A DNA stretch of 64,000 bases from an uncultured Pelagibacteraceae bacterium (lineage in GTDB: Bacteria; Pseudomonadota; Alphaproteobacteria; Pelagibacterales; Pelagibacteraceae), in NCBI GenBank assembly GCA_902557155.1, contig CACDYR010000002.1:71025-135024 (forward strand). The letters are read 5' to 3'. Below the pieces are notes generated by a model. It was not told where the DNA came from. It worked only from the letters and a program-made list of their open reading frames with translations, and ran no database searches. Shown piece by piece: positions 6,615 to 37,618 of this stretch. The first letter of the stretch is position 1. The number at the start of each line of letters is the position of its first letter. Position numbers and translations under genes: made by a program.

Positions 6615-7649
6615 ATGAATTACAAAAATTTAGGTAATACCGATATTAAAGTGAGCACAATTTGTCTCGGTACTATGACGTGGGGAGAGCAAAATACTGA
6701 GCTTGAAGCATTTGAACAAATGGATTTTGCTTTAGATCAAGGAGTAAACTTTTGGGACACTGCTGAATTATATGCAGTACCACCAAGAAAGGAAACCTAT
6801 GGTGATACAGAAGAAATTATTGGAAACTGGTTTGAAAAAACAAAAAAAAGAGACAAAGTCATTCTTGCAACAAAAGTTGCTGGTCCAGCAAGAGATTATT
6901 TAAGAAGTGGAGAAAATAGTTTTACAGGTCCAAACTTAGAGTCTGCTTTAAATGACAGTCTTAAAAGACTTAAAACTGATTATATAGATTTATATCAACT
7001 TCATTGGCCAGAAAGAAATGTAAATAATTTTGGAAGACTTGGTTATGTTCATAAGGAAAATGAATGGAATAAATTTGAAGATGTTCTTGCAGAATTAAAT
7101 AAATATATTGATCAGGGAAAAATAAGATATGTTGGTTTATCAAATGAAACCCCGTGGGGAGTTTTAAATTATCTTCAATTATCTAAAGATAAAAAATTAC
7201 CAAGAATGATGTCAATTCAAAATCCTTACAGCTTATTAAACAGATCTTACGAAGTTGGATTAGCTGAAGTTTCTATAAGAGAAAATATTGGCTGCTTAGC
7301 TTACTCTCCACTTGCAAGTGGATATTTAAGTGGAAAATATAGAAACAAAAGTTTTCCTAAAGGATCAAGAATGGCGAGAGATTTTGATTTTTGGACAAGG
7401 TATAGAAAGCCGAATACTGAGGATGCAGTTGAGCATTATTACAAAATTAGTGAAAAATTTGATCTAGATATGAGTCAAATGTCTATTAAATTTTGTGAAA
7501 TCCAAGACTTTATGACTAGTGTAATAATTGGAGCAACTACAATGGAGCAGTTGAAAACAAATATAGAAAGTGTAAATGTAAACTTATCTGATGATGTCAT
7601 TAAAGAAATTAACCAAGTACAAACAATTTATCCAAATCCATGTCCATAA
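6615..7649 (+). CDS. Aldo/keto reductase (Tas-like)
   Basis: LGTMTWGEQN, DTAELY, DLYQLHWPER. Confidence 0.92.
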   Translation: MNYKNLGNTDIKVSTICLGTMTWGEQNTELEAFEQMDFALDQGVNFWDTAELYAVPPRKETYGDTEEIIGNWFEKTKKRDKVILATKVAGPARDYLRSGENSFTGPNLESALNDSLKRLKTDYIDLYQLHWPERNVNNFGRLGYVHKENEWNKFEDVLAELNKYIDQGKIRYVGLSNETPWGVLNYLQLSKDKKLPRMMSIQNPYSLLNRSYEVGLAEVSIRENIGCLAYSPLASGYLSGKYRNKSFPKGSRMARDFDFWTRYRKPNTEDAVEHYYKISEKFDLDMSQMSIKFCEIQDFMTSVIIGATTMEQLKTNIESVNVNLSDDVIKEINQVQTIYPNPCP

Positions 7650-8152
7650 TTAAAAAAATTACAATATTTTTAGGAATATTTTTTATAAGTGGTTTTACTC
7701 AACTTTCAGCCCAAGAAATTAAAAAAATTGGAAAATATAAAGATTGGGAAGCAATGGTTGTTATGGATGCTGATGGCAAAGTATGCTTTGCTCAATCACT
7801 GCCTATTTTACAAGCACCCAAAACTAATAAAAGAGATGCAAAATTATTTGTAGCATTCAGACCAAACGACAACATAAAAAATGAGGTAAGTGTTACCCCA
7901 GGTTATGAATTCAACAAAAATAATTCAGTAACAGCTGCTTCAGGGAAGAATAAATTTAAATTTGATATTAAAGAACAGGGTTTTGCGTGGATTGCAGACA
8001 ATAAAATCGAATTAAAAATGATCAAACAAATGAGAAAAGGATCTAGAATTATGATCACTGGCTACAATCAACAAGGTTCTCAAACAATTGATCATTACTC
8101 ATTACTAGGATTTACTAAAGCTTATAACGCTTCAAGAAAAGCTTGCAGTTAA
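7640..8152 (+). CDS. Invasion-associated locus B (IalB) family exported protein
   Basis: Signal peptide; GKYKDW..CFA; YSLLGFTKAY..C. Confidence 0.75.
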   Translation: MSIIKKITIFLGIFFISGFTQLSAQEIKKIGKYKDWEAMVVMDADGKVCFAQSLPILQAPKTNKRDAKLFVAFRPNDNIKNEVSVTPGYEFNKNNSVTAASGKNKFKFDIKEQGFAWIADNKIELKMIKQMRKGSRIMITGYNQQGSQTIDHYSLLGFTKAYNASRKACS

Positions 8153-8156
8153 TTCG

Positions 8157-9344
8157 ATGAAATCAAAAAAGAAAATTGTTCTAGCTTATTCTGGAGGGCT
8201 CGATACCTCTATAATTTTAAAATGGCTTCAAGAAAATTATGATGCAGATGTAATTTGTTACACGGCAGATGTAGGACAAGAAATTGATAGAAAAAAAATT
8301 ATAACTAATGCAAAAAAATTTGGTGTTAAAAATATAATTATTAAAGATTTAAAAGATATTTTTGTTAAAGATTATGTTTATCCCATGATCAGAGGACATG
8401 CGATCTATGAAGGTGTTTATTTACTAGGGACATCGATAGCGAGGCCTCTTATTGCAAAAGATCAAATAAGAGTAGCTAAAAAATTTAAGGCCTATGCAGT
8501 TTCGCATGGAGCAACTGGTAAAGGCAATGACCAAGTTAGATTTGAATTAGGCTATCATTATTTTGGGCCTAAAATTAAAATCATAGCTCCGTGGAGAATT
8601 TGGAAACTAAAATCTAGAACAGACTTAATTAATTATGCAAAAAAACATGGCATAGTTATTCCTAAAGATAAAAAAGGTGCACCTCCTTTTTCAGTGGATG
8701 ATAATTTATTTCATACATCAACTGAAGGTAAGGTTTTAGAAAATCCAAAAAATTCTGCACCAGAATTTATTTTTCAGCGAACAGTTTCTCCAGAAAAAGC
8801 GCCCAACAAACCATCGTTTGTTACTATCAATTTTAAAAATGGTGATCCTTTTGGAATCAACGGAAAAAAAATGTCTCCAGCTAAATTATTAACAAAGCTC
8901 AATGACATTGCAGGTAAAAATGGAATTGGAAGAGTTGACTTAGTAGAGAATAGATTTTTAGGTATAAAATCTAGAGGAGTATATGAAACACCCGGTGGAA
9001 CTCTTTTAATCAATGCTCATAGAGCAATCGAGTCTGTTACTTTAGATAAAGATACTATGCATAAAAAAGATCAGATTATTTCTAGATATGCTGAATTAAT
9101 TTACAATGGTTATTGGTATTCAAAAGAAAGATTTAAACTTCAAAAAATTGTAGATTTAAAAAGAAGTAAAGTTAATGGCTCAATTAAACTTAAATTGTAC
9201 AAAGGAAATATTACAATTCAATCAAGAGTTACTAATAGTGGTGCTTATTCAATGAAGAAGGTTTCATTTGAAGAAAATAAGTCATTTAATAAATCTAACG
9301 TTGAAAGATTTATCAATTTTCATAAGAAAAAGCTTCGTACTTAG
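8157..9344 (+). CDS. argG: Argininosuccinate synthase
   Basis: LAYSGGLDTS, HGATGKGNDQVRFE, RGVYETPGGT. Confidence 0.96.
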   Translation: MKSKKKIVLAYSGGLDTSIILKWLQENYDADVICYTADVGQEIDRKKIITNAKKFGVKNIIIKDLKDIFVKDYVYPMIRGHAIYEGVYLLGTSIARPLIAKDQIRVAKKFKAYAVSHGATGKGNDQVRFELGYHYFGPKIKIIAPWRIWKLKSRTDLINYAKKHGIVIPKDKKGAPPFSVDDNLFHTSTEGKVLENPKNSAPEFIFQRTVSPEKAPNKPSFVTINFKNGDPFGINGKKMSPAKLLTKLNDIAGKNGIGRVDLVENRFLGIKSRGVYETPGGTLLINAHRAIESVTLDKDTMHKKDQIISRYAELIYNGYWYSKERFKLQKIVDLKRSKVNGSIKLKLYKGNITIQSRVTNSGAYSMKKVSFEENKSFNKSNVERFINFHKKKLRT

Positions 9345-9401
9345 ATTGCTTTAGGACAAATTGACATTTGTTTAAATCACTAAAAATTATATCCTTAGAT
9401 C

Positions 9402-9860
9402 ATGGAATCAATAAAGAATTGGATGAGAGATGCTGCAAATATTTTATTTGATGATAGTAAGAACGATCTACGCGCACTTCCTAAAACAGTTAGATTACAA
9501 ATTCTTTTAGTTTTAAGTTTTATTTGGACTACTGTTTTTAGTTTATATGTTTTTTCTTACACAACTTTTGCATTTGGATGGGCTGGACTTTTTTTAGCTC
9601 ATATAGGTTTAATATTTGCCGTCTATATGACTTTTAAACAATTCCATAGAGCAGAAGAGAAGTCTGCAAGTGTTTTTCAAACAAAAAATTTTGATCCTTT
9701 TAAAATCATGGTCATTGTTTTTGTAATAGTATTTATTTTTGTATTTTCAAAAGGAATTGAAGTTTTAACAAGTCCAAACCCGAATTCTTATTCAATCCCT
9801 TATGATGGTCCCTTAAAATCTGCAATTGAAAAATGGTTACCTTTTAGTAAAGATAAATAA
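9402..9860 (+). CDS. Hypothetical membrane protein (about 3 TM)
   Basis: ORF with hydrophobic segments; stop overlaps next start. Confidence 0.7.
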   Translation: MESIKNWMRDAANILFDDSKNDLRALPKTVRLQILLVLSFIWTTVFSLYVFSYTTFAFGWAGLFLAHIGLIFAVYMTFKQFHRAEEKSASVFQTKNFDPFKIMVIVFVIVFIFVFSKGIEVLTSPNPNSYSIPYDGPLKSAIEKWLPFSKDK

Positions 9861-10240
9861 TGGATAAGATAGCAAAAAACTTACAGTTAGCATTAATGGT
9901 TATTATCTTAATCAGTACTGTTATTGCTGTTGGGATTGAGATGAAAAACATGTTTTTAAATCAATCTGTTACATTAGCAGATTTGCTTTTAATGTTTCTT
10001 TATTTGGAGGTACTAGCAATGGTTAGGGTTTTTTGGAACCAACAATCTATTAGTATTACACTACCACTTCTTATTGCGATTACCGCCCTTGCGCGTTTTA
10101 TTATTCTGCAAGGCAAAGAAATGGATCCTACTGCACTTGTTTATGAAGCAGTAGCTATTTTGTTAATAGCTGGAGCAATTGTTGTTTTAAGATTAAGACA
10201 TAGTGACAAATTAGGTCTTAAGAAAAAAAAATCAAAATAA
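9860..10240 (+). CDS. PsiE-family membrane protein
   Basis: LADLLLMFLYLEVLAMV, PLLIAITALARFIIL; 4 TM. Confidence 0.85.
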   Translation: MDKIAKNLQLALMVIILISTVIAVGIEMKNMFLNQSVTLADLLLMFLYLEVLAMVRVFWNQQSISITLPLLIAITALARFIILQGKEMDPTALVYEAVAILLIAGAIVVLRLRHSDKLGLKKKKSK

Positions 10241-10246
10241 TTTAAA

Positions 10247-11386
10247 ATGATATTTGAAGCTTCAAGGGCTAAGGCCTTAAATCAATTAAATTATTTTGTT
10301 GATAATAATCTTGGAGAATATTCAAAATTAAGAAATTTTGATTTTGGGCCTGAAAAAAGATCTAATATATCTTGCTTATCACCATATATAACTCATGGAA
10401 TAATTAATGAACAAGAAGTCGTTCAGAAAGCTCTAAGTAAATTTTCTTATTCAAAAAATGAAAAGTTTATTCAAGAAGTTCTATGGCGAACTTATTGGAA
10501 AGGTTGGTTAGAACTTAGACCAAATGCTTGGACAGATTACCTTGTTGAATTAAATCAAATTAAAAATGAATTTCAAAATGATCAAAATTATCTTAATGCA
10601 ATTAAGGGAAAAACAAACATAGATTGCTTTAATGAGTGGGTGAAAGAGCTTAAAGAAAACAATTATTTGCATAATCACACAAGAATGTGGTTTGCTAGTA
10701 TTTGGATTTTTACTTTAGAATTACCTTGGCAATTAGGTGCAGAATTTTTTATGCAACATCTTTATGATGGGGATGCTGCATCAAATACTCTTGGGTGGCG
10801 ATGGGTTGCGGGTGTTCAAACTCAAGGAAAACATTACCTTGCAAGTGAATGGAATATTAAAAAATTCACTTACAATAGATTTAAAAATATCAAATTAAAT
10901 GAAAATGCTCCTCCAAAAGTATCTGAAAAATCTTATCAAATAATTAAACAGGATTTCAATAACCCACAAAAGATTGAGAATAAGAATCTTTTAATTTTTG
11001 AAAATAATCTCTCGTTTGAAATCACTGACTTTAAGGAAAACAACTTTAAGAAAATTTACTTAGTTTCTAATAAAAATGAAAATAGAGCAATAAAACTCAG
11101 TGAAAAGTTAGTGAAATTTAAATCTCATTTAATAGAAGACCAAGAACAAAGATTAAAAAATCAATCTATTGATTGTCAAATTATAGATATAAGTGAATTA
11201 ACAAATATTGAAAATTATTACGGTTTGTATCCAACAGTAGGTGAAAATTTAGATTTTTTAAATTCTAATAATTTAAAGATAGATTTTTTATATAGAAATC
11301 TTGATCAATTAGCTTGGCAATACTGTAATAAAGGTTTTTTTAATTTTAAAAATTATATTCCTAAAATAGTTTCAAGCTTTAATTAA
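10247..11386 (+). CDS. Photolyase-family protein with N-terminal FAD-binding domain (NewPHL-like domain order)
   Basis: SCLSPYI, FIQEVLWR, YLHNHTRMWFAS, DGDAASNTLGWRWVAG all in the first about 210 aa; no N-terminal antenna domain. Confidence 0.85.
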   Translation: MIFEASRAKALNQLNYFVDNNLGEYSKLRNFDFGPEKRSNISCLSPYITHGIINEQEVVQKALSKFSYSKNEKFIQEVLWRTYWKGWLELRPNAWTDYLVELNQIKNEFQNDQNYLNAIKGKTNIDCFNEWVKELKENNYLHNHTRMWFASIWIFTLELPWQLGAEFFMQHLYDGDAASNTLGWRWVAGVQTQGKHYLASEWNIKKFTYNRFKNIKLNENAPPKVSEKSYQIIKQDFNNPQKIENKNLLIFENNLSFEITDFKENNFKKIYLVSNKNENRAIKLSEKLVKFKSHLIEDQEQRLKNQSIDCQIIDISELTNIENYYGLYPTVGENLDFLNSNNLKIDFLYRNLDQLAWQYCNKGFFNFKNYIPKIVSSFN

Positions 11387-11604
11387 AACCAACGAACCAT
11401 TCCAATAATTCCAGCGGTTGCATAAAAAAATTGCAAAAATAAAATTCCTTTATGACCTCCTCTATAGGCCCAAATTCCAATTAAAATGGCTGACAATAAC
11501 AATAGACAAAACCCAAAAAATTCTATGCCTATATTTAAAGCGACAAACAAAGAATACAATATTGCAGTTATAACTCCTGCCCATTCAAAAATTTTATTAT
11601 TCAT
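11383..11604 (-). CDS. Small 3-TM membrane protein, possibly PnuC half-module
   Basis: Three hydrophobic helices; C-terminal LQFFY...IGMVRW. Confidence 0.6.
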   Translation of the reverse strand: MNNKIFEWAGVITAILYSLFVALNIGIEFFGFCLLLLSAILIGIWAYRGGHKGILFLQFFYATAGIIGMVRWF

Positions 11605-12320
11605 AAAAGTTTTTTAAAATTATTATAAAGGATTGTAGAGTAGTTATTCATATCTTTCATGTTATCTTTTGCAGATTGATCAAACTTTTCTAACGCGCCA
11701 TTACCAAGCTGATCCTCCAAAGCTTTTTTATACTCCGGAACACACCCCCATTCATTTACCGTTGTATCTTTTATTTCTATATGAAATTGAATTCCATAAG
11801 CATGATTTTGATATTTAAAAATTTGATACTTTGTGATTGGAGAAGAGGCTAATAAAGTTATATCTTTATTATTTTCAATACCCTGGACCTCATAAGAATG
11901 CCATTGTAAACTTTTAATTTTGTCAGGAAATTTAGAAAATAATTTATCTAAATTTTTTTGATTGGAGAAATTTATATCCATAATTCCTATTTCTGCTGGT
12001 TTAGATTTAACCACTTTTCCGCCCACTACTTCTCCTAAAAGCTGACAACCTAAACAAAAACCTAAATAAGGTTTTTTTAGATCTACAACAAATTCTTTGA
12101 TTTTTTTCTTTTCTTCAATTAACCATGGGTATTCCTTCTCCATATAGGTATCCATTGGACCCCCCATGCAAAACATTCCATCAAATTTACTTAAATCGCC
12201 TGGTATTTTTTCACCTTCATCTAATTCAATGGTAGTTAAATTAAATCCATCAGCCAACATCAAATCTTTAATGTAACCTGGGTCTTCTATTTTAATATGC
12301 TGTAGTACTATTATGTTCAC
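11601..12320 (-). CDS. Class I glutamine amidotransferase-like protein
   Basis: GGPM, GFCLGCQ (Cys nucleophile), QFHIE (His-x-Glu). Confidence 0.9.
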   Translation of the reverse strand: MNIIVLQHIKIEDPGYIKDLMLADGFNLTTIELDEGEKIPGDLSKFDGMFCMGGPMDTYMEKEYPWLIEEKKKIKEFVVDLKKPYLGFCLGCQLLGEVVGGKVVKSKPAEIGIMDINFSNQKNLDKLFSKFPDKIKSLQWHSYEVQGIENNKDITLLASSPITKYQIFKYQNHAYGIQFHIEIKDTTVNEWGCVPEYKKALEDQLGNGALEKFDQSAKDNMKDMNNYSTILYNNFKKLL

Positions 12321-12325
12321 TAAGC

Positions 12326-12454
12326 TTAGCTTAGCTTAGAACACTTCTTGGAACAATATTTTACTCTATCCCAATTTAACTTCCATTTTTTTCGCCAAGT
12401 AAATGGTCTTTTGCAAACTGGACAAATTTTTGTTGGTAAATTTTCTTTTTTCAT
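12326..12454 (-). CDS. DUF2256-family small zinc-ribbon-like protein (absent from ORF track)
   Basis: Manual translation [42 protein letters not shown] (42 aa); ATG overlaps the upstream TGA (TGATG). Confidence 0.9.
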
Positions 12455-13944
12455 CAAATTGTATTTAGTTTAATAAATTTATCAGCTTCAGATAAAATTA
12501 ATTTTTTTCTATCAGATTTCATTTTATCAAATATTCTTACCATCATCGATAGACGAGGATTTTTTAAAAAAAATTTTCTATTGCGATCGATGAACCTCCA
12601 GTACAAACCATCCATGGTGCTACACCAATCACCTTTCTTAAAGTCCATCATTTTCATAAAATATGCAGATCCACAAATATAAGGTTTGGTTGCAAAAATT
12701 CCTCCATCACTAAATAATCCCATTCCATATACATTGGGAACCATTACCCAGTCTGAGGAGTCTACGAACATTTCCATGAACCATTTGTAAACAATTGTTG
12801 GCTTGATTTCACAAAGGTTCATAATATTTGATAAGATCATTAACCTTTCAATATGATGTGACCAACCATGATTAACGGCATTTTTAATTGCATAATCCAA
12901 AGGTGGAAGACCAGTGGTTCCATCGTACCAAGAATTTTTCATTTTTCTATTTTGTTTGAAAAAATTTCCAGTTTCCATTTCTTGAGAGTATGACTGATAA
13001 ATTCCTCGCATAAATTCTCGCCAACCAATCACTTGACGAATGTAACCCTCTAAAGAATTCATTCTAATTTTATTTTTCTTGTGAAAGTCTAAAACTTTTT
13101 GGACAACAAATTCAGGGGTTATTAAACCTAAATTTATGTAAGGACTTAATGCACTATGGAACAGGATATTATCTTTTTGATCAACTGCATCCTCATAATC
13201 ACCAAAAAGATTAGATTTTTCTTTTATAAAAAAATTCAATAGTTTAACTACATCTTCATATTCCGTTGCAAACCAAAAATTATTTGTACTCCCTGGGTGA
13301 TTTTTAAATTCCTTTTCAATAATAGGCTTTAATTTTTTTGTGTGACTGGTTTCATTTATTTTTGGAAATTTAGGAATTGAAATATTTTTAGGTAATTTAT
13401 TTCTGTTATCTTCATCAAAGCTCCATTTGCCCCCGATTGGATTACCATCTGGACCCATCAATATTCCAGATTTTTTTCTAACATCTTTGTAGAAAGTTGC
13501 CATAAAAGGTTTTTTTGATTTTGATAAATAATTTTTAAATTCAGTTCTTGAATTTAAAAACATAGGAGTTTGAACAACATTCCAGTGTATTTTTTCTTTT
13601 TTTAAAAATTGTGAAATTTTTTTTTCAAAAAATTTATCCTCTACTTCAAAACTAGAAATTTCTTTTACTTTTTTTTCTGTAATTTTTTTTTTTAATTTTT
13701 TTAAATAATCTTCATTAAATTCTTTATCTTCGATTTTAAAGTAATCTAATTTAAATTTGTTTTTTCTTAATCCATCTGCATAAGAACGCATAGAAGATAA
13801 AAATAGTAAAATTTTTTGTTTATGATGCTTTTCATAAGTGCATAAACCCTTATCTTCAGCCATAAAAAATAGGTGGTCTTTTTTGAAGCGGTCTAGGTAT
13901 TTTGTTGGAAATAATTGATTACCAAGTATAAAAAATAACTTCAT
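12454..13944 (-). CDS. Bacterial cryptochrome/(6-4) photolyase, PhrB/CryB class, lacking Fe-S cysteines
   Basis: [54 protein letters not shown]. Confidence 0.92.
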
Positions 13945-32920: not shown

Positions 32921-34458
32921 TGAAGAAAAAAATCAAAACAGCTCTCATATCTGTATCTGACAAAAATAACTTAAAACCATTGCTAAATATTTTAAAAAAA
33001 AACAAAATTAAAATAATTAGCTCAGGTGGTACTTATAAAAAAATTAAAAAATTAAAATTTAACTGTTTAGAAGTATCTGATTTTACTAGTTCCCCCGAGA
33101 TTTTGGAGGGTAGGGTAAAAACTCTTCATCCAAAAATTCATGCAGGGATTTTAAGTAAAAGAGAAAAAAAATCTCACTTAAAAGATCTTAAAGATAATAA
33201 TTTTGAGAATATTGATTTAGTAATAGTTAATTTTTATCCATTTGAGAACACTCTTAAAAAAACAAATAATCATCTAAAAATTATTGAAAATATAGATGTA
33301 GGTGGTCCCACTATGGTTAGATCGGCGGCAAAAAACTACAATGATGTAGCTGTAATAACTTCTCCAGATCAATATGAGGAGTTAATTCAAGAACTAAAAA
33401 AATTCAAGGGATCTACTTCTTTAAATTTTAGAGAAAAACTATCAAGAATAGCGTTTGCTGAGACGGCATATTATGACTCTGTGATTTCAAACTATTTTAA
33501 CAAAAAAACAAATACTATTTTCCCCAAGAAAAAAATTTTTCATGGAAATCTAATAGAGCAACTTAGATATGGTGAAAATCCTCACCAATTAAGCGCAATT
33601 TATTCCAGTAGTTCAAATATGAACTTAAAACAAATTCATGGAAAACAGCTTAGTTATAACAATTATAATGACATATTTAGCGCTCTTACTATTTCAAGAT
33701 CTTTACCAAAAGGGAAAGGAACAGTCATAGTTAAGCACGCAAACCCGTGTGGAGTTTCTGCTAAAAATGATCATTTAGAGAGTTATAAGTCCGCTCTGTC
33801 TTGTGACCCTGTAAGTGCTTTTGGTGGAATAGTTTCTTGTAATTTTAAAATTAAAAGAGATTTAGCTGTTGAATTAAATAAGTTATTTTTAGAAGTAATA
33901 ATTGCAAATGGTTTCGATAGCAATTCAATCAAAATATTAAATGCTAAAAAAAACTTAAGATTGATTGATGGAACAAATTATACATCAGGAGAACTTTTTA
34001 AGTTTGTATCATTTAATCAAGATATAATGATGCAATCAGAGGACTTAAATATATTTGCAAAAAAAAATTTTAAAGTTGTATCAAAACGAAAACCAACATC
34101 TAAACAACTTAAAGATCTAATTTTTGCTTTTAATGTATGTAGGTATGTAAAATCAAATGCAATAGTATTAGCATCTAATGAAGCTACTGTTGGTATTGGT
34201 TCTGGTCAACCAAGTAGACTAGATAGTTGCCAAATAGCAATAAATAAAATGAAAAAATTTAATCTTCAGACTGATAATTTAGTAGCAGCCTCAGACGCAT
34301 TTTTTCCTTTTGTAGATGGTATCGAAAAATTAGTCCAATCAGGTGTTAGAGCTGTTATTCAACCATCTGGATCAATAAGAGATAAAGAAATAATTAATTT
34401 TGCAAACGAGACTGATACTGTGCTTCTTTTTTCAGAGACAAGACATTTTAGACATTAG
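32920..34458 (+). CDS. purH: AICAR transformylase/IMP cyclohydrolase
   Basis: GRVKTLHP, IDVGGPTMVR, LRYGENPHQ, KHANPCG, SDAFFPF. Confidence 0.98.
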   Translation: MKKKIKTALISVSDKNNLKPLLNILKKNKIKIISSGGTYKKIKKLKFNCLEVSDFTSSPEILEGRVKTLHPKIHAGILSKREKKSHLKDLKDNNFENIDLVIVNFYPFENTLKKTNNHLKIIENIDVGGPTMVRSAAKNYNDVAVITSPDQYEELIQELKKFKGSTSLNFREKLSRIAFAETAYYDSVISNYFNKKTNTIFPKKKIFHGNLIEQLRYGENPHQLSAIYSSSSNMNLKQIHGKQLSYNNYNDIFSALTISRSLPKGKGTVIVKHANPCGVSAKNDHLESYKSALSCDPVSAFGGIVSCNFKIKRDLAVELNKLFLEVIIANGFDSNSIKILNAKKNLRLIDGTNYTSGELFKFVSFNQDIMMQSEDLNIFAKKNFKVVSKRKPTSKQLKDLIFAFNVCRYVKSNAIVLASNEATVGIGSGQPSRLDSCQIAINKMKKFNLQTDNLVAASDAFFPFVDGIEKLVQSGVRAVIQPSGSIRDKEIINFANETDTVLLFSETRHFRH

Positions 34459-34792
34459 TTATTTTATCTATTTTTGCAGCAAGAATAAAATCACTCTCGG
34501 CAAGACCCTTTATCGCATGCGTAAATATTTTAATTCTCGCATAACCCCACCCAAACCATAGATCAGGATGATGACCTTCAGCTTCAGCTATTTGTCCAAC
34601 TTTATTGACAAATTCCTGACTTTTTAAAAAGTTATCAAATTTAAAATTCTTGATTAAATGAAAGCCATCAATTTTATCTTCTAAAACTTCCCAGCCATCA
34701 ACTTTTTTAAGATATTTATGTATCTCCTCTGCATTAAATGGAGGAATATTTCCTTCACAAGGAACACACTTTTTGTTTGCTAGATCACTCAT
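34448..34792 (-). CDS. Pterin-4-alpha-carbinolamine dehydratase (start corrected to MSDLANKK)
   Basis: CVPC, EGHHPDL, FTHAIKGL..DFILAAKID; the longer ORF call overlaps the tRNA. Confidence 0.92.
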   Translation of the reverse strand: MSDLANKKCVPCEGNIPPFNAEEIHKYLKKVDGWEVLEDKIDGFHLIKNFKFDNFLKSQEFVNKVGQIAEAEGHHPDLWFGWGYARIKIFTHAIKGLAESDFILAAKIDKITNV

Positions 34793-34801
34793 AATTTTTT
34801 T

Positions 34802-34876
34802 TGGAGCGGGCAAAGGGGGTCGAACCCTCGACCTTCTCGTTGGCAACGAGACGCTCTACCACTGAGCTATGCCCGC
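34802..34876 (-). tRNA. tRNA-Gly(GCC)
   Basis: GCGGGCATAGCTCAGTGGTAGAGCGTCTCGTTGCCAACGAGAAGGTCGAGGGTTCGACCCCCTTTGCCCGCTCCA; cloverleaf, GCC anticodon, encoded CCA. Confidence 0.98.
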
Positions 34877-34878
34877 TT
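34837..34878. repeat. att core copy 1 (42-bp direct repeat = 5' half of tRNA-Gly)
   Basis: TCGTTGGCAACGAGACGCTCTACCACTGAGCTATGCCCGCTT, identical to 36668-36709. Confidence 0.97.
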
Positions 34879-34893
34879 CTTAAATTATTATTG

Positions 34894-34922
34894 AAATTAG
34901 AGGCTTTTTAAAAATTTAGCAA
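34894..34922 (-). promoter_or_regulatory. Island-supplied candidate sigma70 promoter for the intact tRNA-Gly
   Basis: Minus strand TTGCTA-N17-TAATTT, 17 nt upstream of the tRNA 5' end. Confidence 0.45.
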
Positions 34923-34949: not shown

Positions 34950-34971
34950 AACTGTGCCGACAGTGTGCCGA
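34950..34971. repeat. Tandem arm-type repeat pair (left end)
   Basis: TGTGCCGA at 34953 and 34964 (11-bp period). Confidence 0.65.
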
Positions 34972-34990
34972 GATTTTAGATAAAAATTTT

Positions 34991-35018
34991 ATCTGGGGCT
35001 GCATGCAGTGCCCCAGAT
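34991..35018. terminator. GC-rich hairpin just downstream of the HNH gene; probable terminator
   Basis: ATCTGGGGC-N10-GCCCCAGAT, 9-bp perfect stem flanked by A/T tracts. Confidence 0.7.
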
Positions 35019-35024
35019 TAGTTT

Positions 35025-35447
35025 TTAATTTTCAATGTAAGGTATTTGCAATTCCCAATAGCCAGCTACTTTCATATGTTCATGAAAATTTTCATGGCAG
35101 TTGTTACACAAAGCAACTACATCTTGCATGGGAACTTCTCTAAACTTTACACCATGATATTTATTATGATGAGCACATTGTGAAGATCTAGCACAGTTCA
35201 CGCATTTTGGTGAATTAGCTAAAGTATACGCAGAAACAGCCTGCCAATGGTCTGTTTTATAGTACATCTTTAACGTAAGCATCTCACACACAAAGTGTCC
35301 ATGTTCAATAATGATACTTGCTTGCCTGAAATCATTTCGCTTCAGAGCATCTTCTTTTTCACGGAATAATTTATTAGCTAAATCAAAGAGCTTGTCTGTT
35401 CCTAAAAGATTTCTTGCGTTATCATAATCTTGTTTGGTTCTGCTCAT
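35025..35447 (-). CDS. HNH-family endonuclease with CxxC...CxxCH zinc site
   Basis: YYKTDHWQ..., CVNC, HH, LCNNCHENFH; AGGAGG Shine-Dalgarno 8 nt before ATG. Confidence 0.8.
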   Translation of the reverse strand: MSRTKQDYDNARNLLGTDKLFDLANKLFREKEDALKRNDFRQASIIIEHGHFVCEMLTLKMYYKTDHWQAVSAYTLANSPKCVNCARSSQCAHHNKYHGVKFREVPMQDVVALCNNCHENFHEHMKVAGYWELQIPYIEN

Positions 35448-35763: not shown

Positions 35764-36357
35764 TTGATGTTAGGTGATTTATTACTAGACTTTTTAGACC
35801 AAAAAAAAGTCATTAAAAATTCTGCTAAAGAGTTTGCAAGACTTTACGATTTTTTTGAAATTTATAAAAAATCAACCCCTGAAAATTTTAAAAAATACAT
35901 TGATGAACAAAATGAATATATAATCTCAGAAATTCTAACGAGTTTATATTTAATCGCTTATGTGGCCAAAATTCGAAACAACAAAAAACTAATATTTAAA
36001 TCTGCTTTTCAAAAAGACGAATTTTTCATGCAAGATATCTTTCTTCAAAATAAAGATATTAGAAAAGTTTTTACAACCGAATATCAAATTATAATAACTG
36101 CATTATCAAGTAAATTTGGTATGGATAAAAAGGATGTAAAATTAGTCATAGATGGAATGCACGCTATTTTAATACTTAAGACTGAGGAAAAAAATAAAGA
36201 GGAACCAGATGAAACGCCAATACCTGATTTTTCTTCTATAGCTCAATCTTTAGATAATGACTTTCGTAAAATTGAAGATTTTGAGAACGACTCACCTGAT
36301 AAAATAGATAATTTTGTTAAAAAATTAATTGAAAAACATTATTGGGGAAAAAACTAA
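35764..36357 (+). CDS. Hypothetical protein (island cargo)
   Basis: 197-aa ORF, helical-looking with acidic C-terminal third; no motif recognised. Confidence 0.65.
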   Translation: MMLGDLLLDFLDQKKVIKNSAKEFARLYDFFEIYKKSTPENFKKYIDEQNEYIISEILTSLYLIAYVAKIRNNKKLIFKSAFQKDEFFMQDIFLQNKDIRKVFTTEYQIIITALSSKFGMDKKDVKLVIDGMHAILILKTEEKNKEEPDETPIPDFSSIAQSLDNDFRKIEDFENDSPDKIDNFVKKLIEKHYWGKN

Positions 36358-36539
36358 TCTTTGGGACTTATTTTTCTTAATTTTTTATTTTGAATATAAA
36401 TTATACCTATAAGTAAAAATACTAACAAAGGGTAAGCAATAATAAATATGATGATATTTATTAATTCATAACTAGTTCCAGTGAGATCTGCCAACCAAAC
36501 AAGAATATCTACACATAAATAAAAAATATAATCAATCAT
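36354..36539 (-). CDS. Small membrane protein (island cargo)
   Basis: 61 aa; amphipathic N-terminus, TM helix, basic tail. Confidence 0.6.
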   Translation of the reverse strand: MIDYIFYLCVDILVWLADLTGTSYELINIIIFIIAYPLLVFLLIGIIYIQNKKLRKISPKD

Positions 36540-36587: not shown

Positions 36588-36609
36588 AACTGTGTCGTCA
36601 GTGTGTCAA
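36588..36609. repeat. Tandem arm-type repeat pair (right end)
   Basis: TGTGTCGT at 36591 and TGTGTCAA at 36602 (11-bp period); 17/21 identical to 34950-34970. Confidence 0.65.
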
Positions 36610-36667
36610 AAAATAAAGTTAACGTAAAAATTACAGAAAATTGAGTTATTTATTAAAGAATTAAGGA

Positions 36668-36709
36668 TCGTTGGCAACGAGACGCTCTACCACTGAGCTA
36701 TGCCCGCTT
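36668..36709 (-). repeat. att core copy 2: orphan 5' half of tRNA-Gly
   Basis: tRNA nt 1-40 plus 2 upstream nt; no T-arm or 3' acceptor strand follows. Confidence 0.97.
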
Positions 36710-36720
36710 GTTTAAAAAAC

Positions 36721-36749
36721 ATTGTAGTTAGCGGTTTTTATAAATGCAA
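36721..36749 (-). promoter_or_regulatory. Probable native sigma70 promoter of tRNA-Gly, now facing into the island
   Basis: Minus strand TTGCAT-N17-TACAAT, 13 nt upstream of the tRNA-half 5' end. Confidence 0.65.
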
Positions 36750-36766: not shown

Positions 36767-37618
36767 TTATTTTAGATAATTTAATTCTTTTAAATTATTT
36801 TCAAAAATTGAATTTAATTTATTTTGGTAGCTTTTATCAAATATGCTTTTCCAATCGTTTTTTGGTCCTAAATGAAAAAAAGGAATTTTTTTAGGATCAT
36901 TTTTTGATAAAACAGATTCCAGAAAACCACTGTTTTTTTCCATGTTTTTTAAATTTTCAAAATTACATGATTTTACAGAATTTTGAGCTTTTAAGTTATT
37001 AATCTCTTTTTTTTCTTGAATAGTATTTTGAATAAAATCTATTATTTCCCTTAAAATGTCTAAAGGTTTGACTATAAGATCTTCATACTTAATTAATTTA
37101 ACTGGGAAAATCTTTTGATTTATCCAGGACTTATAATTTTTTTCCCAAGAACTTATAAATTGAAAATCACTAAAATCGTTTTTTACATGGTAATCGTGGA
37201 TATATTTTTTTTCACTTAACATAAATTTCAAAGCTTCATCTTTAGATAATTCATAATGATTTTGTAAAGAGGTTAATACATTTCTTGGATCGCGCACAAT
37301 GTAAATAGCACCAATAGTGTTTTTTTTATTTGTAAAATTACTGTTATTGATTGATCCTAAAATATTATGGGTTTTGAGAAAATTTAATTCATTATTTAAA
37401 TTTATTTTTTCCTGAGCTTTAATCCAAAATTTAGATGTGTCAGTTACTATTTTTGGATCATAATTAAAATCGCTAAAATGTCTTTTTTCAGGGAATTGAT
37501 CAATATTTTTAAGTAAATCTTGATTGAAAATGCCTTCTTCTGAATAAAAATATGATGACAACAATGCTCTTAACCATGTGTTCCCACTTTTGGGATATGA
37601 GGCTATCCAAAATATCAT
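36767..37618 (-). CDS. PAPS-dependent sulfotransferase (Sulfotransfer_1-like), paralogue 1
   Basis: [10 protein letters not shown] (5'-PSB loop), LKTH, YIVRDPRN..S (3'-PB), KYEDL. Confidence 0.92.
   Translation of the reverse strand: MIFWIASYPKSGNTWLRALLSSYFYSEEGIFNQDLLKNIDQFPEKRHFSDFNYDPKIVTDTSKFWIKAQEKINLNNELNFLKTHNILGSINNSNFTNKKNTIGAIYIVRDPRNVLTSLQNHYELSKDEALKFMLSEKKYIHDYHVKNDFSDFQFISSWEKNYKSWINQKIFPVKLIKYEDLIVKPLDILREIIDFIQNTIQEKKEINNLKAQNSVKSCNFENLKNMEKNSGFLESVLSKNDPKKIPFFHLGPKNDWKSIFDKSYQNKLNSIFENNLKELNYLK

What the first reader, a model, noticed from the sequence alone, without database searches (positions are those of the whole stretch)
36668..36749. The 5' half of the tRNA is duplicated, not the usual 3' half, so the island replaces the tRNA promoter
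Seen: the orphan copy is tRNA nt 1-40 and lies upstream of the complete tRNA. It has a good promoter (TTGCAT-N17-TACAAT). The complete tRNA instead has island DNA upstream with its own candidate promoter (TTGCTA-N17-TAATTT, 34894-34922). The two upstream regions share a TAAAAA.C..CTAA.T.CAAT pattern, suggesting the element carries a diverged copy or mimic of the host promoter. Established: most tRNA-targeting elements restore the 3' end, and 5'-restoring ones are the minority. Inference: expression of this tRNA now depends on island DNA, which could stabilise the island without a toxin-antitoxin pair if it is the only tRNA-Gly(GCC).
Basis: partly seen in the sequence, partly recalled or inferred. 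Interest (0 to 1): 0.75.

Follow-up and report, generated by a model that had tools for sequence, protein, structure and literature searches.

The report
Promoter-carrying mini-island at SAR11 tRNA-Gly
A 1.8-kb integrase-less mobile cassette sits in the only tRNA-Gly(GCC) gene of a Pelagibacter (SAR11) genome and supplies the tRNA's new promoter and first 40 bases. It belongs to a cassette family that has spread at this site across many SAR11 species, though the general kind of element is already known.

Summary
An exact 42-nt direct repeat (34837-34878 = 36668-36709) is tRNA-Gly(GCC) nt 1-40 plus 2 upstream bases. The orphan lies 1,831 bp upstream of the complete gene.

A Tara Oceans contig that is 99% identical to the host flank runs from the sulfotransferase gene through the orphan's promoter into an uninterrupted tRNA. 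So the orphan's promoter is native and the 1.83 kb is an insertion.

The insert has no integrase. Its ends carry paired GRCACAC repeats with an 11-bp period, about 96 nt on either side of the tRNA segment. The same ends flank other cargo in at least 30 Pelagibacter species. They also flank a 5.2-kb element with a tyrosine integrase that is 100% identical in four species. One metagenome contig shows both types in tandem.

The element-borne promoter is a homologue of native Pelagibacter tRNA-Gly promoters. It travels with the element, while orphan-side promoters differ from host to host.

I read this as a non-autonomous derivative of an anticodon-loop-targeting integrative element that restores the tRNA's 5' part.

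5'-restoring attP sites are already documented for SAR11 podophages. The "stabilisation without toxin" idea is weak, because loss through the repeats restores the native gene.

The parts
34448..34792 (-). Host flank: pterin-4a-carbinolamine dehydratase gene, directly downstream of the tRNA
   Evidence: Pfam PF01329, E = 1.8e-26. Its position next to the tRNA is conserved in 19 relatives.
34802..34876 (-). Complete tRNA-Gly(GCC). By inference nt 1-40 are element-derived and nt 41-75 host-derived.
   Evidence: ARAGORN. Rfam tRNA model, 71.9 bits. 100% identical to the tRNA of island-free relatives.
34837..34878 (-). Direct-repeat copy 1 (attR core): tRNA nt 1-40 plus 2 nt upstream
   Evidence: Exact 42-nt repeat. 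The empty-site contig L161 switches flank exactly at the repeat boundary.
34894..34922 (-). Element-borne tRNA promoter candidate, TTGCTA-N17-TAATTT
   Evidence: Read from the sequence. The same TTGCT(A/T)-N17-TA.TTT layout sits upstream of tRNA-Gly in G010, G024, G005 and G020. 80% identical to G010 over 50 nt. No transcription-start data.
34950..34974 (-). Right-end repeat m2 (GGCACACTGTCGGCACAG): two GRCACA units with an 11-bp period. Proposed integrase arm-type site, starting 97 nt upstream of the tRNA.
   Evidence: 2 matches in the window against 0 expected. Conserved position in 15 elements.
34993..35016 (-). GC-rich hairpin after the HNH gene. Likely a terminator that insulates the tRNA promoter from cargo transcription.
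   Evidence: Read from the sequence. An analogous hairpin of different sequence follows the cargo in G018 and G011. Inference only.
35025..35447 (-). Cargo: 140-aa HNH-like protein
   Evidence: phrog_8060 (7.7e-7) and phrog_119 HNH endonuclease (5.8e-5). The identical protein occurs on 5 marine metagenome contigs. No PADLOC hit.
35764..36357 (+). Cargo: 197-aa protein of unknown function
   Evidence: No Pfam, PHROGs, PADLOC or NCBIfam hit. A homologue lies in the 1,079-bp cassette of G219.
36354..36539 (-). Cargo: 61-aa hydrophobic protein, co-directional with and downstream of the displaced native tRNA promoter
   Evidence: ORF list. A homologue lies in the G219 cassette. In the integrase-bearing element this position is occupied by the integrase gene.
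36588..36612 (-). Left-end repeat m1 (GACACACTGACGACACAG). Proposed arm-type site, starting 96 nt after the orphan's first base.
   Evidence: In G264 the same repeat sits 13 nt before the integrase start codon.
36613..36667 (-). Spacer: decayed 3' half of the element's ancestral tRNA-Gly copy
   Evidence: The whole region 36632-36707 still scores 21.8 bits on the full tRNA model. Graded decay is visible across elements: G264 keeps nt 1-66, while L073 and G018 are intermediate.
36668..36709 (-). Direct-repeat copy 2 (attL core): orphan tRNA nt 1-40 (36707 to 36668) plus 2 nt
   Evidence: G000:C2:107692-107731.
36721..36749 (-). Native tRNA-Gly promoter, TTGCAT-N17-TACAAT, now in front of the orphan and the cargo
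   Evidence: The same promoter, with TATAAT, precedes the intact tRNA in the empty-site contig L161. 84% identical to G015 and G006.
36767..37618 (-). Host flank: sulfotransferase gene
   Evidence: PF00685, 2.8e-21. The exact protein is on L161.

Best explanation
The 1,831-bp segment between the repeats is a non-autonomous, integrase-less member of a family of small integrative elements. These elements target the anticodon-loop region of Pelagibacter tRNA-Gly(GCC).

The family's attP descends from a whole tRNA-Gly gene with its promoter. Its layout is arm repeat m2, about 70 nt of promoter, tRNA nt 1-40 (up to nt 66 in the integrase-bearing form), a decayed 3' half, then arm repeat m1.

A tyrosine integrase crosses over within the shared 5' segment, most likely in the 7-nt anticodon loop. 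The autonomous 5.2-kb relatives encode this integrase. It is absent from this genome.

Integration leaves the host promoter plus the host 5' half joined to the element's dead 3' half; this is the orphan. It joins the element's promoter plus 5' half to the host 3' half; this is the working gene. The tRNA is therefore transcribed from element DNA. The displaced host tRNA promoter now points into the element, at the integrase gene in the autonomous form and at the 61-aa ORF here.

Shown: the insertion, its exact boundaries, the empty site, the shared ends, the autonomous relative, tandem accretion, and the homology of the promoters.

Inferred: use of the promoters, the arm-site role of the repeats, the crossover position inside the 42 nt, and mobilisation in trans.
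For: 1. Empty site. Contig L161 is 99.06% identical to window 37622-36668 and then continues into the tRNA 3' half.
2. Same ends, different cargo. G018 and G011 carry a 416-aa choice-of-anchor-I protein, G219 carries only the 61-aa and 195-aa genes, and L160 carries an 810-aa protein.
3. Autonomous relative. G264, G148, G228 and G127 have a 5.2-kb element at the same site with a phage-type tyrosine integrase directly after m1 (PF00589 2.6e-15, phrog_1 5.5e-47). The integrase is 100% identical in these four species.
4. Tandem array. L160 shows an integrase-less cassette followed by the left end of the integrase-bearing element.
5. Horizontal spread. The 416-aa cassette is a median 96.4% identical over 1.6 kb among 22 loci, of which G018=L071 and G011=L129 are the same contigs, so 20 distinct species. 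Flanks give only short matches of 73-81% identity, or none.
6. Promoters. The element-side promoter is constant for a given cassette, while orphan-side promoters vary with the host.
7. Crossover position. In G018, L118 and L089 the orphan has T at nt 38 where the tRNA has C, which places the crossover 5' of nt 38.
8. Parallel case in the same genome. A related integrase (27.5% identity) at tRNA-Arg(TCT) on contig C13 has its own 11-bp-period repeats (ATGACGA) at both element ends and an identity block that starts at the anticodon loop. A 23.5-kb pilus island at the same tRNA-Gly site carries yet another end repeat.
Against: - No integrase is present in the island or elsewhere in this 95%-complete genome beyond one distant (27.5% identity) integrase and one further tyrosine recombinase. 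Mobilisation in trans is unproven, and the island may simply be a dead remnant.
- No free attP or circular form was found. The one metagenome hit is a tandem array. Neither the repeat nor the integrase occurs in IMG/VR or GenBank phages.
- No transcription data are available.
- The G000 cargo is no more conserved relative to G219 than the flanking genes are (by eye), so this particular cassette need not have moved recently.
- The 416-aa gene also occurs at non-tRNA sites, bounded inside the repeat. The arm-site model does not explain this.
Confidence: 0.8

Rival explanations
1. The insertion and spread of the cassette happen by RecA-dependent homologous recombination through the short tRNA and promoter homology. 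This could be Campbell-type insertion of a circle or double crossover of transformed DNA. No site-specific recombinase is involved.
For: No cognate integrase exists in this genome or in the other cassette-bearing genomes sampled. The repeat is 42 nt of perfect identity. SAR11 is known for high recombination rates (my own knowledge).
Against: The arm-like repeats keep their sequence and their distance of about 96 nt on both sides in 15 elements with unrelated cargo. Homologous recombination has no need for that. An integrase-bearing element has the same ends. The identity block always stops at nt 39-41, in the 3' strand of the anticodon stem. Upstream flanks are unrelated between hosts, so the homology arms would be only about 40 and 35 nt.
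Confidence: 0.1
2. The GRCACAC repeats are themselves the crossover sites, in an integron-like cassette exchange. The duplicated tRNA 5' half would then be a fixed docking platform rather than a product of each insertion.
For: Different cargo lies exactly between m1 and m2. At six non-tRNA loci the 416-aa gene block begins and ends inside the repeat, and in L117 it is flanked by a CACTTYGACRCARAAAAGAAA direct repeat.
Against: The empty site L161 has neither a repeat nor a tRNA duplication, and the breakpoint is at the 42-nt tRNA repeat. No 'empty platform' (orphan, about 190 nt, then tRNA) was seen among some 40 loci. Orphan-side promoters are host-specific.
Confidence: 0.07
3. The segment is a remnant of a full pelagiphage prophage that integrated with a 5'-restoring attP and then lost nearly all its genes.
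For: HTVC019P-type pelagiphages integrate into SAR11 tRNA genes and supply the 5' part. The HNH protein has weak PHROG hits.
Against: Neither the DNA nor the proteins match 50,697 phage records. The related autonomous element is only 5.2 kb and has no capsid or polymerase genes. tRNA-Gly is not among the reported pelagiphage targets.
Confidence: 0.03

Closest known systems
attP sites of HTVC019P-type pelagiphages (Zhao et al., bioRxiv 10.1101/410191)
   Same: Same host group (SAR11). A tyrosine integrase and a target inside a tRNA gene. The element supplies the 5' part of the tRNA, so the reconstituted gene is a hybrid.
   Different: Those are 35-40-kb podophages that target tRNA-Cys, tRNA-Leu and tRNA-Arg. 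Promoter supply is not discussed in the paper. Here the target is tRNA-Gly(GCC), the elements are 1-5 kb, most lack an integrase, and there is no phage gene or DNA similarity.
CIMEs (cis-mobilisable elements) of streptococcal ICEs, and accretion-mobilisation (from my own knowledge)
   Same: Elements that keep functional-looking att ends of an autonomous element but have lost the recombinase. They occur alone or in tandem with the autonomous element.
   Different: CIMEs derive from conjugative elements in Firmicutes and use 3' ends of genes. Mobilisation has been shown experimentally for them, not here.
VEIMEs, marine phage satellites (Eppley et al. 2022, PMC9618062)
   Same: Small tyrosine-integrase elements that are abundant in Pelagibacter. 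Some modules carry HNH genes. The 5.2-kb relative has a phage-type integrase and a phrog_4756 protein.
   Different: No evidence of encapsidation here. Neither the repeat nor the integrase was found in IMG/VR. The island in the window has no replication or integrase gene.
Genomic islands in tRNA and tmRNA genes as defined by Williams and Islander (PMC4383910)
   Same: An intact tDNA plus a displaced fragment in the same orientation. The anticodon-loop sublocation (attribution to Williams 2002 is from my own knowledge).
   Different: The more common polarity restores the 3' end. Islander also rejects candidates shorter than 2 kb, so this 1.83-kb island falls below its filter.
Tycheposons of Prochlorococcus (Hackl et al. 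2023, from my own knowledge)
   Same: tRNA-associated cargo cassettes in tandem arrays, in a streamlined marine bacterium.
   Different: Different recombinases and hosts. Not tested here.

Membership tests
tDNA-targeting tyrosine-integrase genomic island (Islander definition) | Intact tDNA plus a displaced terminal fragment, in the same orientation, with a 5' fragment lying upstream | tested here: met
   The configuration rule is quoted.
tDNA-targeting tyrosine-integrase genomic island (Islander definition) | The island encodes its own tyrosine integrase | tested here: not met
   No PF00589 hit in the island's ORFs. The genome-wide search found only C13 and C5. tblastn with the cognate integrase gave no hit in the island. 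The feature is met in the G264-type relative.
tDNA-targeting tyrosine-integrase genomic island (Islander definition) | An uninterrupted target exists in a close relative (empty site) | tested here: met
   L161, 99.06% identical over 955 nt and then an intact tRNA.
Non-autonomous (CIME-like) integrative element | Both ends are homologous to the att ends of an autonomous element that uses the same target | tested here: met
   Alignment of reconstructed attP sequences from 15 elements, including the integrase-bearing G264. Repeat positions.
Non-autonomous (CIME-like) integrative element | Occurs in tandem with the autonomous element (accretion) | tested here: inconclusive
   Seen for a sister cassette in metagenome contig L160, not for the island in this window.
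Non-autonomous (CIME-like) integrative element | Excision or integration catalysed in trans by the partner's integrase | not testable with these tools
   Only indirect evidence: the 416-aa cassette is a median 96.4% identical across 20 distinct species whose flanks are unrelated.
HTVC019P-type pelagiphage prophage or remnant | Phage genes (RNA polymerase, capsid, terminase) or DNA similarity to pelagiphages | tested here: not met
   blastn and tblastn against 50,697 phage records matched only unrelated phage tRNA-Gly genes.
VEIME / phage satellite | Found in virus-particle DNA; carries integrase and replication genes | tested here: not met
   No match to the repeat or the integrase in IMG/VR. 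The island lacks both gene types. The VEIME data set itself was not searchable.
Integron gene cassette | attC with imperfect inverted repeats, and an IntI integrase beside attI | tested here: not met
   The end repeats are direct, not inverted. The related integrase scores 20 bits against a cut-off of 265 on the integron-integrase model.

The most novel reading that the evidence does not exclude
In Pelagibacter the tRNA-Gly(GCC) gene may act as a cassette-capture site. Integrase-less cassettes, each carrying a complete attP with its own tRNA promoter and 5' half, would be moved between species in trans by a small satellite-like element's integrase and stacked in tandem. Each insertion would swap promoters: the newcomer feeds the tRNA, and the displaced tRNA promoter drives the first gene of the element. 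This would be a tRNA-embedded functional analogue of an integron and a route of gene flow into the most abundant marine bacterium.
Probability: 0.3. Interest if true: 0.7.

Novelty: new member of a known kind. Interest (0 to 1): 0.5.

Why it matters
SAR11 genomes are streamlined and long seemed nearly free of mobile elements. How new genes enter them is still debated.

This locus gives a concrete and testable route. It has a defined attP architecture, a candidate integrase, an empty site and an occupied site in the same natural population, and a cassette that is about 96% identical across some 20 species.

It also illustrates a general point. An element that restores the 5' part of a tRNA must bring a promoter with it. 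Here that promoter is a captured homologue of the host's own tRNA promoter.

The principle is not new: tRNA-targeting islands, 5'-restoring pelagiphage attP sites and integrase-less derivatives are all known.

Tried and rejected
- **GenBank phages.** DNA and protein searches of the island matched only unrelated phage tRNA-Gly genes.
- **IMG/VR.** Scans for the repeat and for the integrase found nothing.
- **Metagenomes.** The scan for a free attP gave one hit, which is a tandem array and not a circle junction.
- **Cargo function.** PADLOC, NCBIfam and Pfam gave no function beyond a weak HNH signal.
- **Promoter scanner.** The generic promoter/terminator scan does not discriminate here: 9 sites found against 11.6 expected.
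- **Exact-protein look-ups.** The dehydratase and the 197-aa protein found nothing.
- **Repeats as crossover sites.** I considered this seriously because of the non-tRNA copies of the 416-aa gene. I rejected it for this island because the empty site breaks at the tRNA repeat and holds no GRCACAC repeat.
- **Is the island-side promoter the native one?** I considered this because the closest relative on the dehydratase/purH side (G024) has a similar promoter type. The empty-site contig ruled it out.
- **The C13 integrase as partner.** At 27.5% identity it has its own, different arm repeats, so it is unlikely to act on this island.

Full report
**What is in the sequence.** The window is C2:71025-135024 of a 1.27-Mb, 22-contig, roughly 29% G+C genome. 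Its relatives are Pelagibacteraceae single-cell genomes and MAGs. ARAGORN finds one tRNA, tRNA-Gly(GCC), at 34802-34876 on the minus strand. An exact 42-nt direct repeat, 34837-34878 = 36668-36709, covers tRNA nt 1-40 plus two upstream bases.

The assembly holds one tRNA-Gly(GCC) and one tRNA-Gly(UCC) among 32 tRNAs. GGT and GGC together make up 51% of glycine codons in long ORFs. The gene is therefore very probably indispensable.

**Which copy is native.** The exact sulfotransferase protein of the window (36767-37618) occurs on a Tara Oceans contig, L161. That contig is 99.06% identical to window 37622-36668. From the end of the 42-nt repeat onward it continues into the true 3' half of the tRNA. 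This is the empty site in a near-identical strain. It shows that the orphan's promoter is the native one and that the segment between the repeats is an insertion whose junction lies inside the tRNA segment. In L161 the -10 hexamer is TATAAT; in the window's orphan it is TACAAT.

Other metagenome contigs carry the identical HNH protein, with the 61-aa and 196-aa genes or with the dehydratase gene beside it. Both alleles therefore exist in the ocean.

Across 19 same-genus genomes the order is ftsK, ubiH-like, Lon-N, [variable], tRNA-Gly, [variable], dehydratase, purH. In ten of them the Lon-N gene lies 74-183 nt from the tRNA.

**The promoters.** Every native upstream region in the genus has a CTTGC-type -35 element, an A-rich spacer and a -10 element. 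They come in two main flavours:
- TTG(C/A)AT-N17-TA(T/C)AAT, ending 13 nt before the tRNA.
- TTGCT(A/T)-N17-TA.TTT, ending 16-17 nt before the tRNA.

The orphan has the first flavour, 84% identical to G015 and G006. The element-side copy has the second, 80% identical to island-free G010. The two copies in the window are 70% identical to each other, against a background of 55 +/- 5%.

So the element carries a genuine homologue of a Pelagibacter tRNA-Gly promoter, not a chance look-alike. For the commonest cassette in other species the element-side promoter is always the same sequence, whereas the orphan-side promoter changes with the host. That is the pattern expected if the promoter travels with the element. 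Promoter use itself is inferred.

**What the insert is.** It encodes a 140-aa HNH-like protein, a 197-aa protein and a 61-aa hydrophobic protein. It has no integrase.

Each end carries a pair of GRCACA(C/G) units with an 11-bp period, in direct orientation. One starts 97 nt before the tRNA and the other 96 nt after the first base of the orphan.

The same ends recur with other cargo:
- G018 and G011: a 1.65-kb cassette with a single 416-aa secreted choice-of-anchor-I protein.
- G219: a 1,079-bp cassette with only the homologues of the 61-aa and 197-aa genes.
- Other species: cassettes of 2.3 and 3.9 kb.

A scan of one genome per species found the repeat in 38 Pelagibacteraceae loci, almost always next to tRNA-Gly. 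In a sample of 401 family genomes, 230 matched the 5'-half pattern and 19 of those had a second match.

**The autonomous relative.** G264, G148, G228 and G127 carry a 5.2-kb element at the same site. Its parts, in order, are:
- the host promoter;
- a tRNA copy intact to nt 66;
- repeat m1;
- a ribosome-binding site and a 316-aa tyrosine integrase (PF00589; phrog_1, 5.5e-47; about 33% identical to Acinetobacter and Pseudomonas phage integrases);
- a 513-aa phrog_4756 protein;
- by inspection, cytochrome c, cupredoxin-like and Rieske-type genes;
- repeat m2;
- the complete tRNA.

The integrase is 100% identical in these four species representatives.

An alignment of reconstructed attP sequences from 15 elements shows invariant repeats, a promoter, an invariant tRNA nt 1-37, and then every stage of decay of the 3' half. 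The window's orphan region still scores 21.8 bits against the full tRNA model. The attP of this family thus descends from a whole tRNA-Gly gene with its promoter. Only the part that ends up in the working gene has been kept intact.

**Crossover and mechanism.** The identity block ends at nt 39-41, in the 3' strand of the anticodon stem. In three hosts the orphan has T where the tRNA has C at nt 38, which puts the exchange 5' of that base. This fits the classical anticodon-loop sublocation of tyrosine integrases (my own knowledge of Williams 2002), but with the 5' side retained.

A parallel case sits in the same genome. On contig C13 an integrase 27.5% identical to the G264 enzyme lies directly after tRNA-Arg(TCT), in a 6.4-kb element. 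That element is bounded by a 3' fragment whose identity starts at the anticodon loop. It has its own 11-bp-period repeats (ATGACGA) at both ends. A 23.5-kb type IV pilus island at the tRNA-Gly site of G281 has the same 40-nt orphan but yet another end repeat.

Three elements with three different repeats in the same layout support the arm-type-site reading. The integrases differ in the two cases where one was found; none was identified in the G281 island. This remains an inference.

**Mobility.** The 416-aa cassette is a median 96.4% identical over its full 1.6 kb among 22 loci (20 distinct species, because G018=L071 and G011=L129). Their flanks give short 73-81% matches or none. An integrase-less cassette has therefore spread horizontally and recently.

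Metagenome contig L160 shows an integrase-less cassette (810-aa cargo) immediately followed by the left end of the integrase-bearing element. This is the tandem state needed for mobilisation in trans.

None of the sampled cassette-bearing genomes, including this one, has the cognate integrase. The island in the window is thus at present either stranded or dependent on an incoming partner.

**Consequences.** After integration the tRNA depends on the element's promoter. A GC-rich hairpin after the HNH gene probably insulates that promoter from cargo transcription (34993-35016, inference). The displaced host promoter points at the first element gene: the integrase gene in the autonomous form and the 61-aa ORF here.

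Excision, or deletion through the repeats, regenerates the native gene, which demonstrably exists. Only the roughly 100 bp beside the tRNA are protected. That may help explain why the ends survive while the internal genes are lost.

**Comparison with what is known.** HTVC019P-type pelagiphages already show 5'-restoring attP sites in SAR11 tRNA-Cys, tRNA-Leu and tRNA-Arg. Islander accepts upstream 5' fragments but discards islands under 2 kb. Small integrase elements are abundant in Pelagibacter. Integrase-less derivatives are known elsewhere as CIMEs (my own knowledge).

New here are the tRNA-Gly target, the element family and its attP anatomy, the explicit demonstration that the promoter is carried, and the scale of cassette spread. 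I rate it a new member of a known kind, of moderate interest.

**Unexplained.** The 416-aa gene block also occurs at six non-tRNA loci, with boundaries inside the repeat.

Noticed in passing
G000 contig C13 (outside the window), reverse-complement coordinates 7262-13730: A second small integrative element, about 6.4 kb, at tRNA-Arg(TCT). The complete tRNA is followed by a 332-aa tyrosine integrase, a 603-aa protein that looks primase-like by eye (not searched), and further small ORFs. It ends in a 3' tRNA fragment whose identity starts at the anticodon loop. ATGACGA repeats with an 11-bp period lie at both ends. Its polarity is opposite to that of the tRNA-Gly island.
   Followed up: partly
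L057, L083, L086, L087, L074, L117 (Pelagibacteraceae single-cell genomes): The 416-aa choice-of-anchor-I gene, with its terminator and a single hybrid GACACAC repeat, sits at three different non-tRNA contexts. In L117 it is flanked by the direct repeat CACTTYGACRCARAAAAGAAA. This suggests a second way in which this gene block moves, or the locus from which the element captured it.
   Followed up: partly
G281:C6 (L141/L142), about 23.5 kb between the orphan and tRNA-Gly: A type IV pilus gene cluster with PilM/PilN and more than ten pilin-like genes is inserted at the same tRNA-Gly site. It has a 40-nt orphan but a different end repeat (AGTGATAG[C/T]ATAGGGATAGA). No integrase was recognised in it.
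   Followed up: partly
window 36721-36726 versus L161: The displaced native promoter has TACAAT at -10, while the empty-site strain has the consensus TATAAT. This could reflect relaxed or altered selection after displacement. It is a single difference, so no conclusion can be drawn.
   Followed up: no
G127:C1 about 549 kb and about 1,381.7 kb (L145, L146): The two ends of the integrase-bearing element lie about 830 kb apart on opposite strands of one chromosome. This suggests a large inversion with one breakpoint inside the element.
   Followed up: no
G000 C2:173881 (outside the window) and C5:66175-66251: A 28-nt copy (at most 2 mismatches) of the 3' end of tRNA-Pro(TGG) lies on a different contig from the tRNA-Pro gene. 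It could be the far end of another island or an old remnant.
   Followed up: no
L160 142-2574 (metagenome contig MDTB01090468.1): The sister cassette carries an 810-aa protein full of CxxC zinc-ribbon-like repeats as its only cargo. Its function is unknown.
   Followed up: no
Region between the Lon-N gene and purH in 19 same-genus genomes (L031-L049): Both sides of tRNA-Gly are variable. They carry sulfotransferases, and ORFs that by eye look like TPR-sulfotransferases, FkbM-type methyltransferases and a carbamoyltransferase. Most have no detectable tRNA fragment, so the locus is a small hypervariable spot beyond the cassette family.
   Followed up: partly
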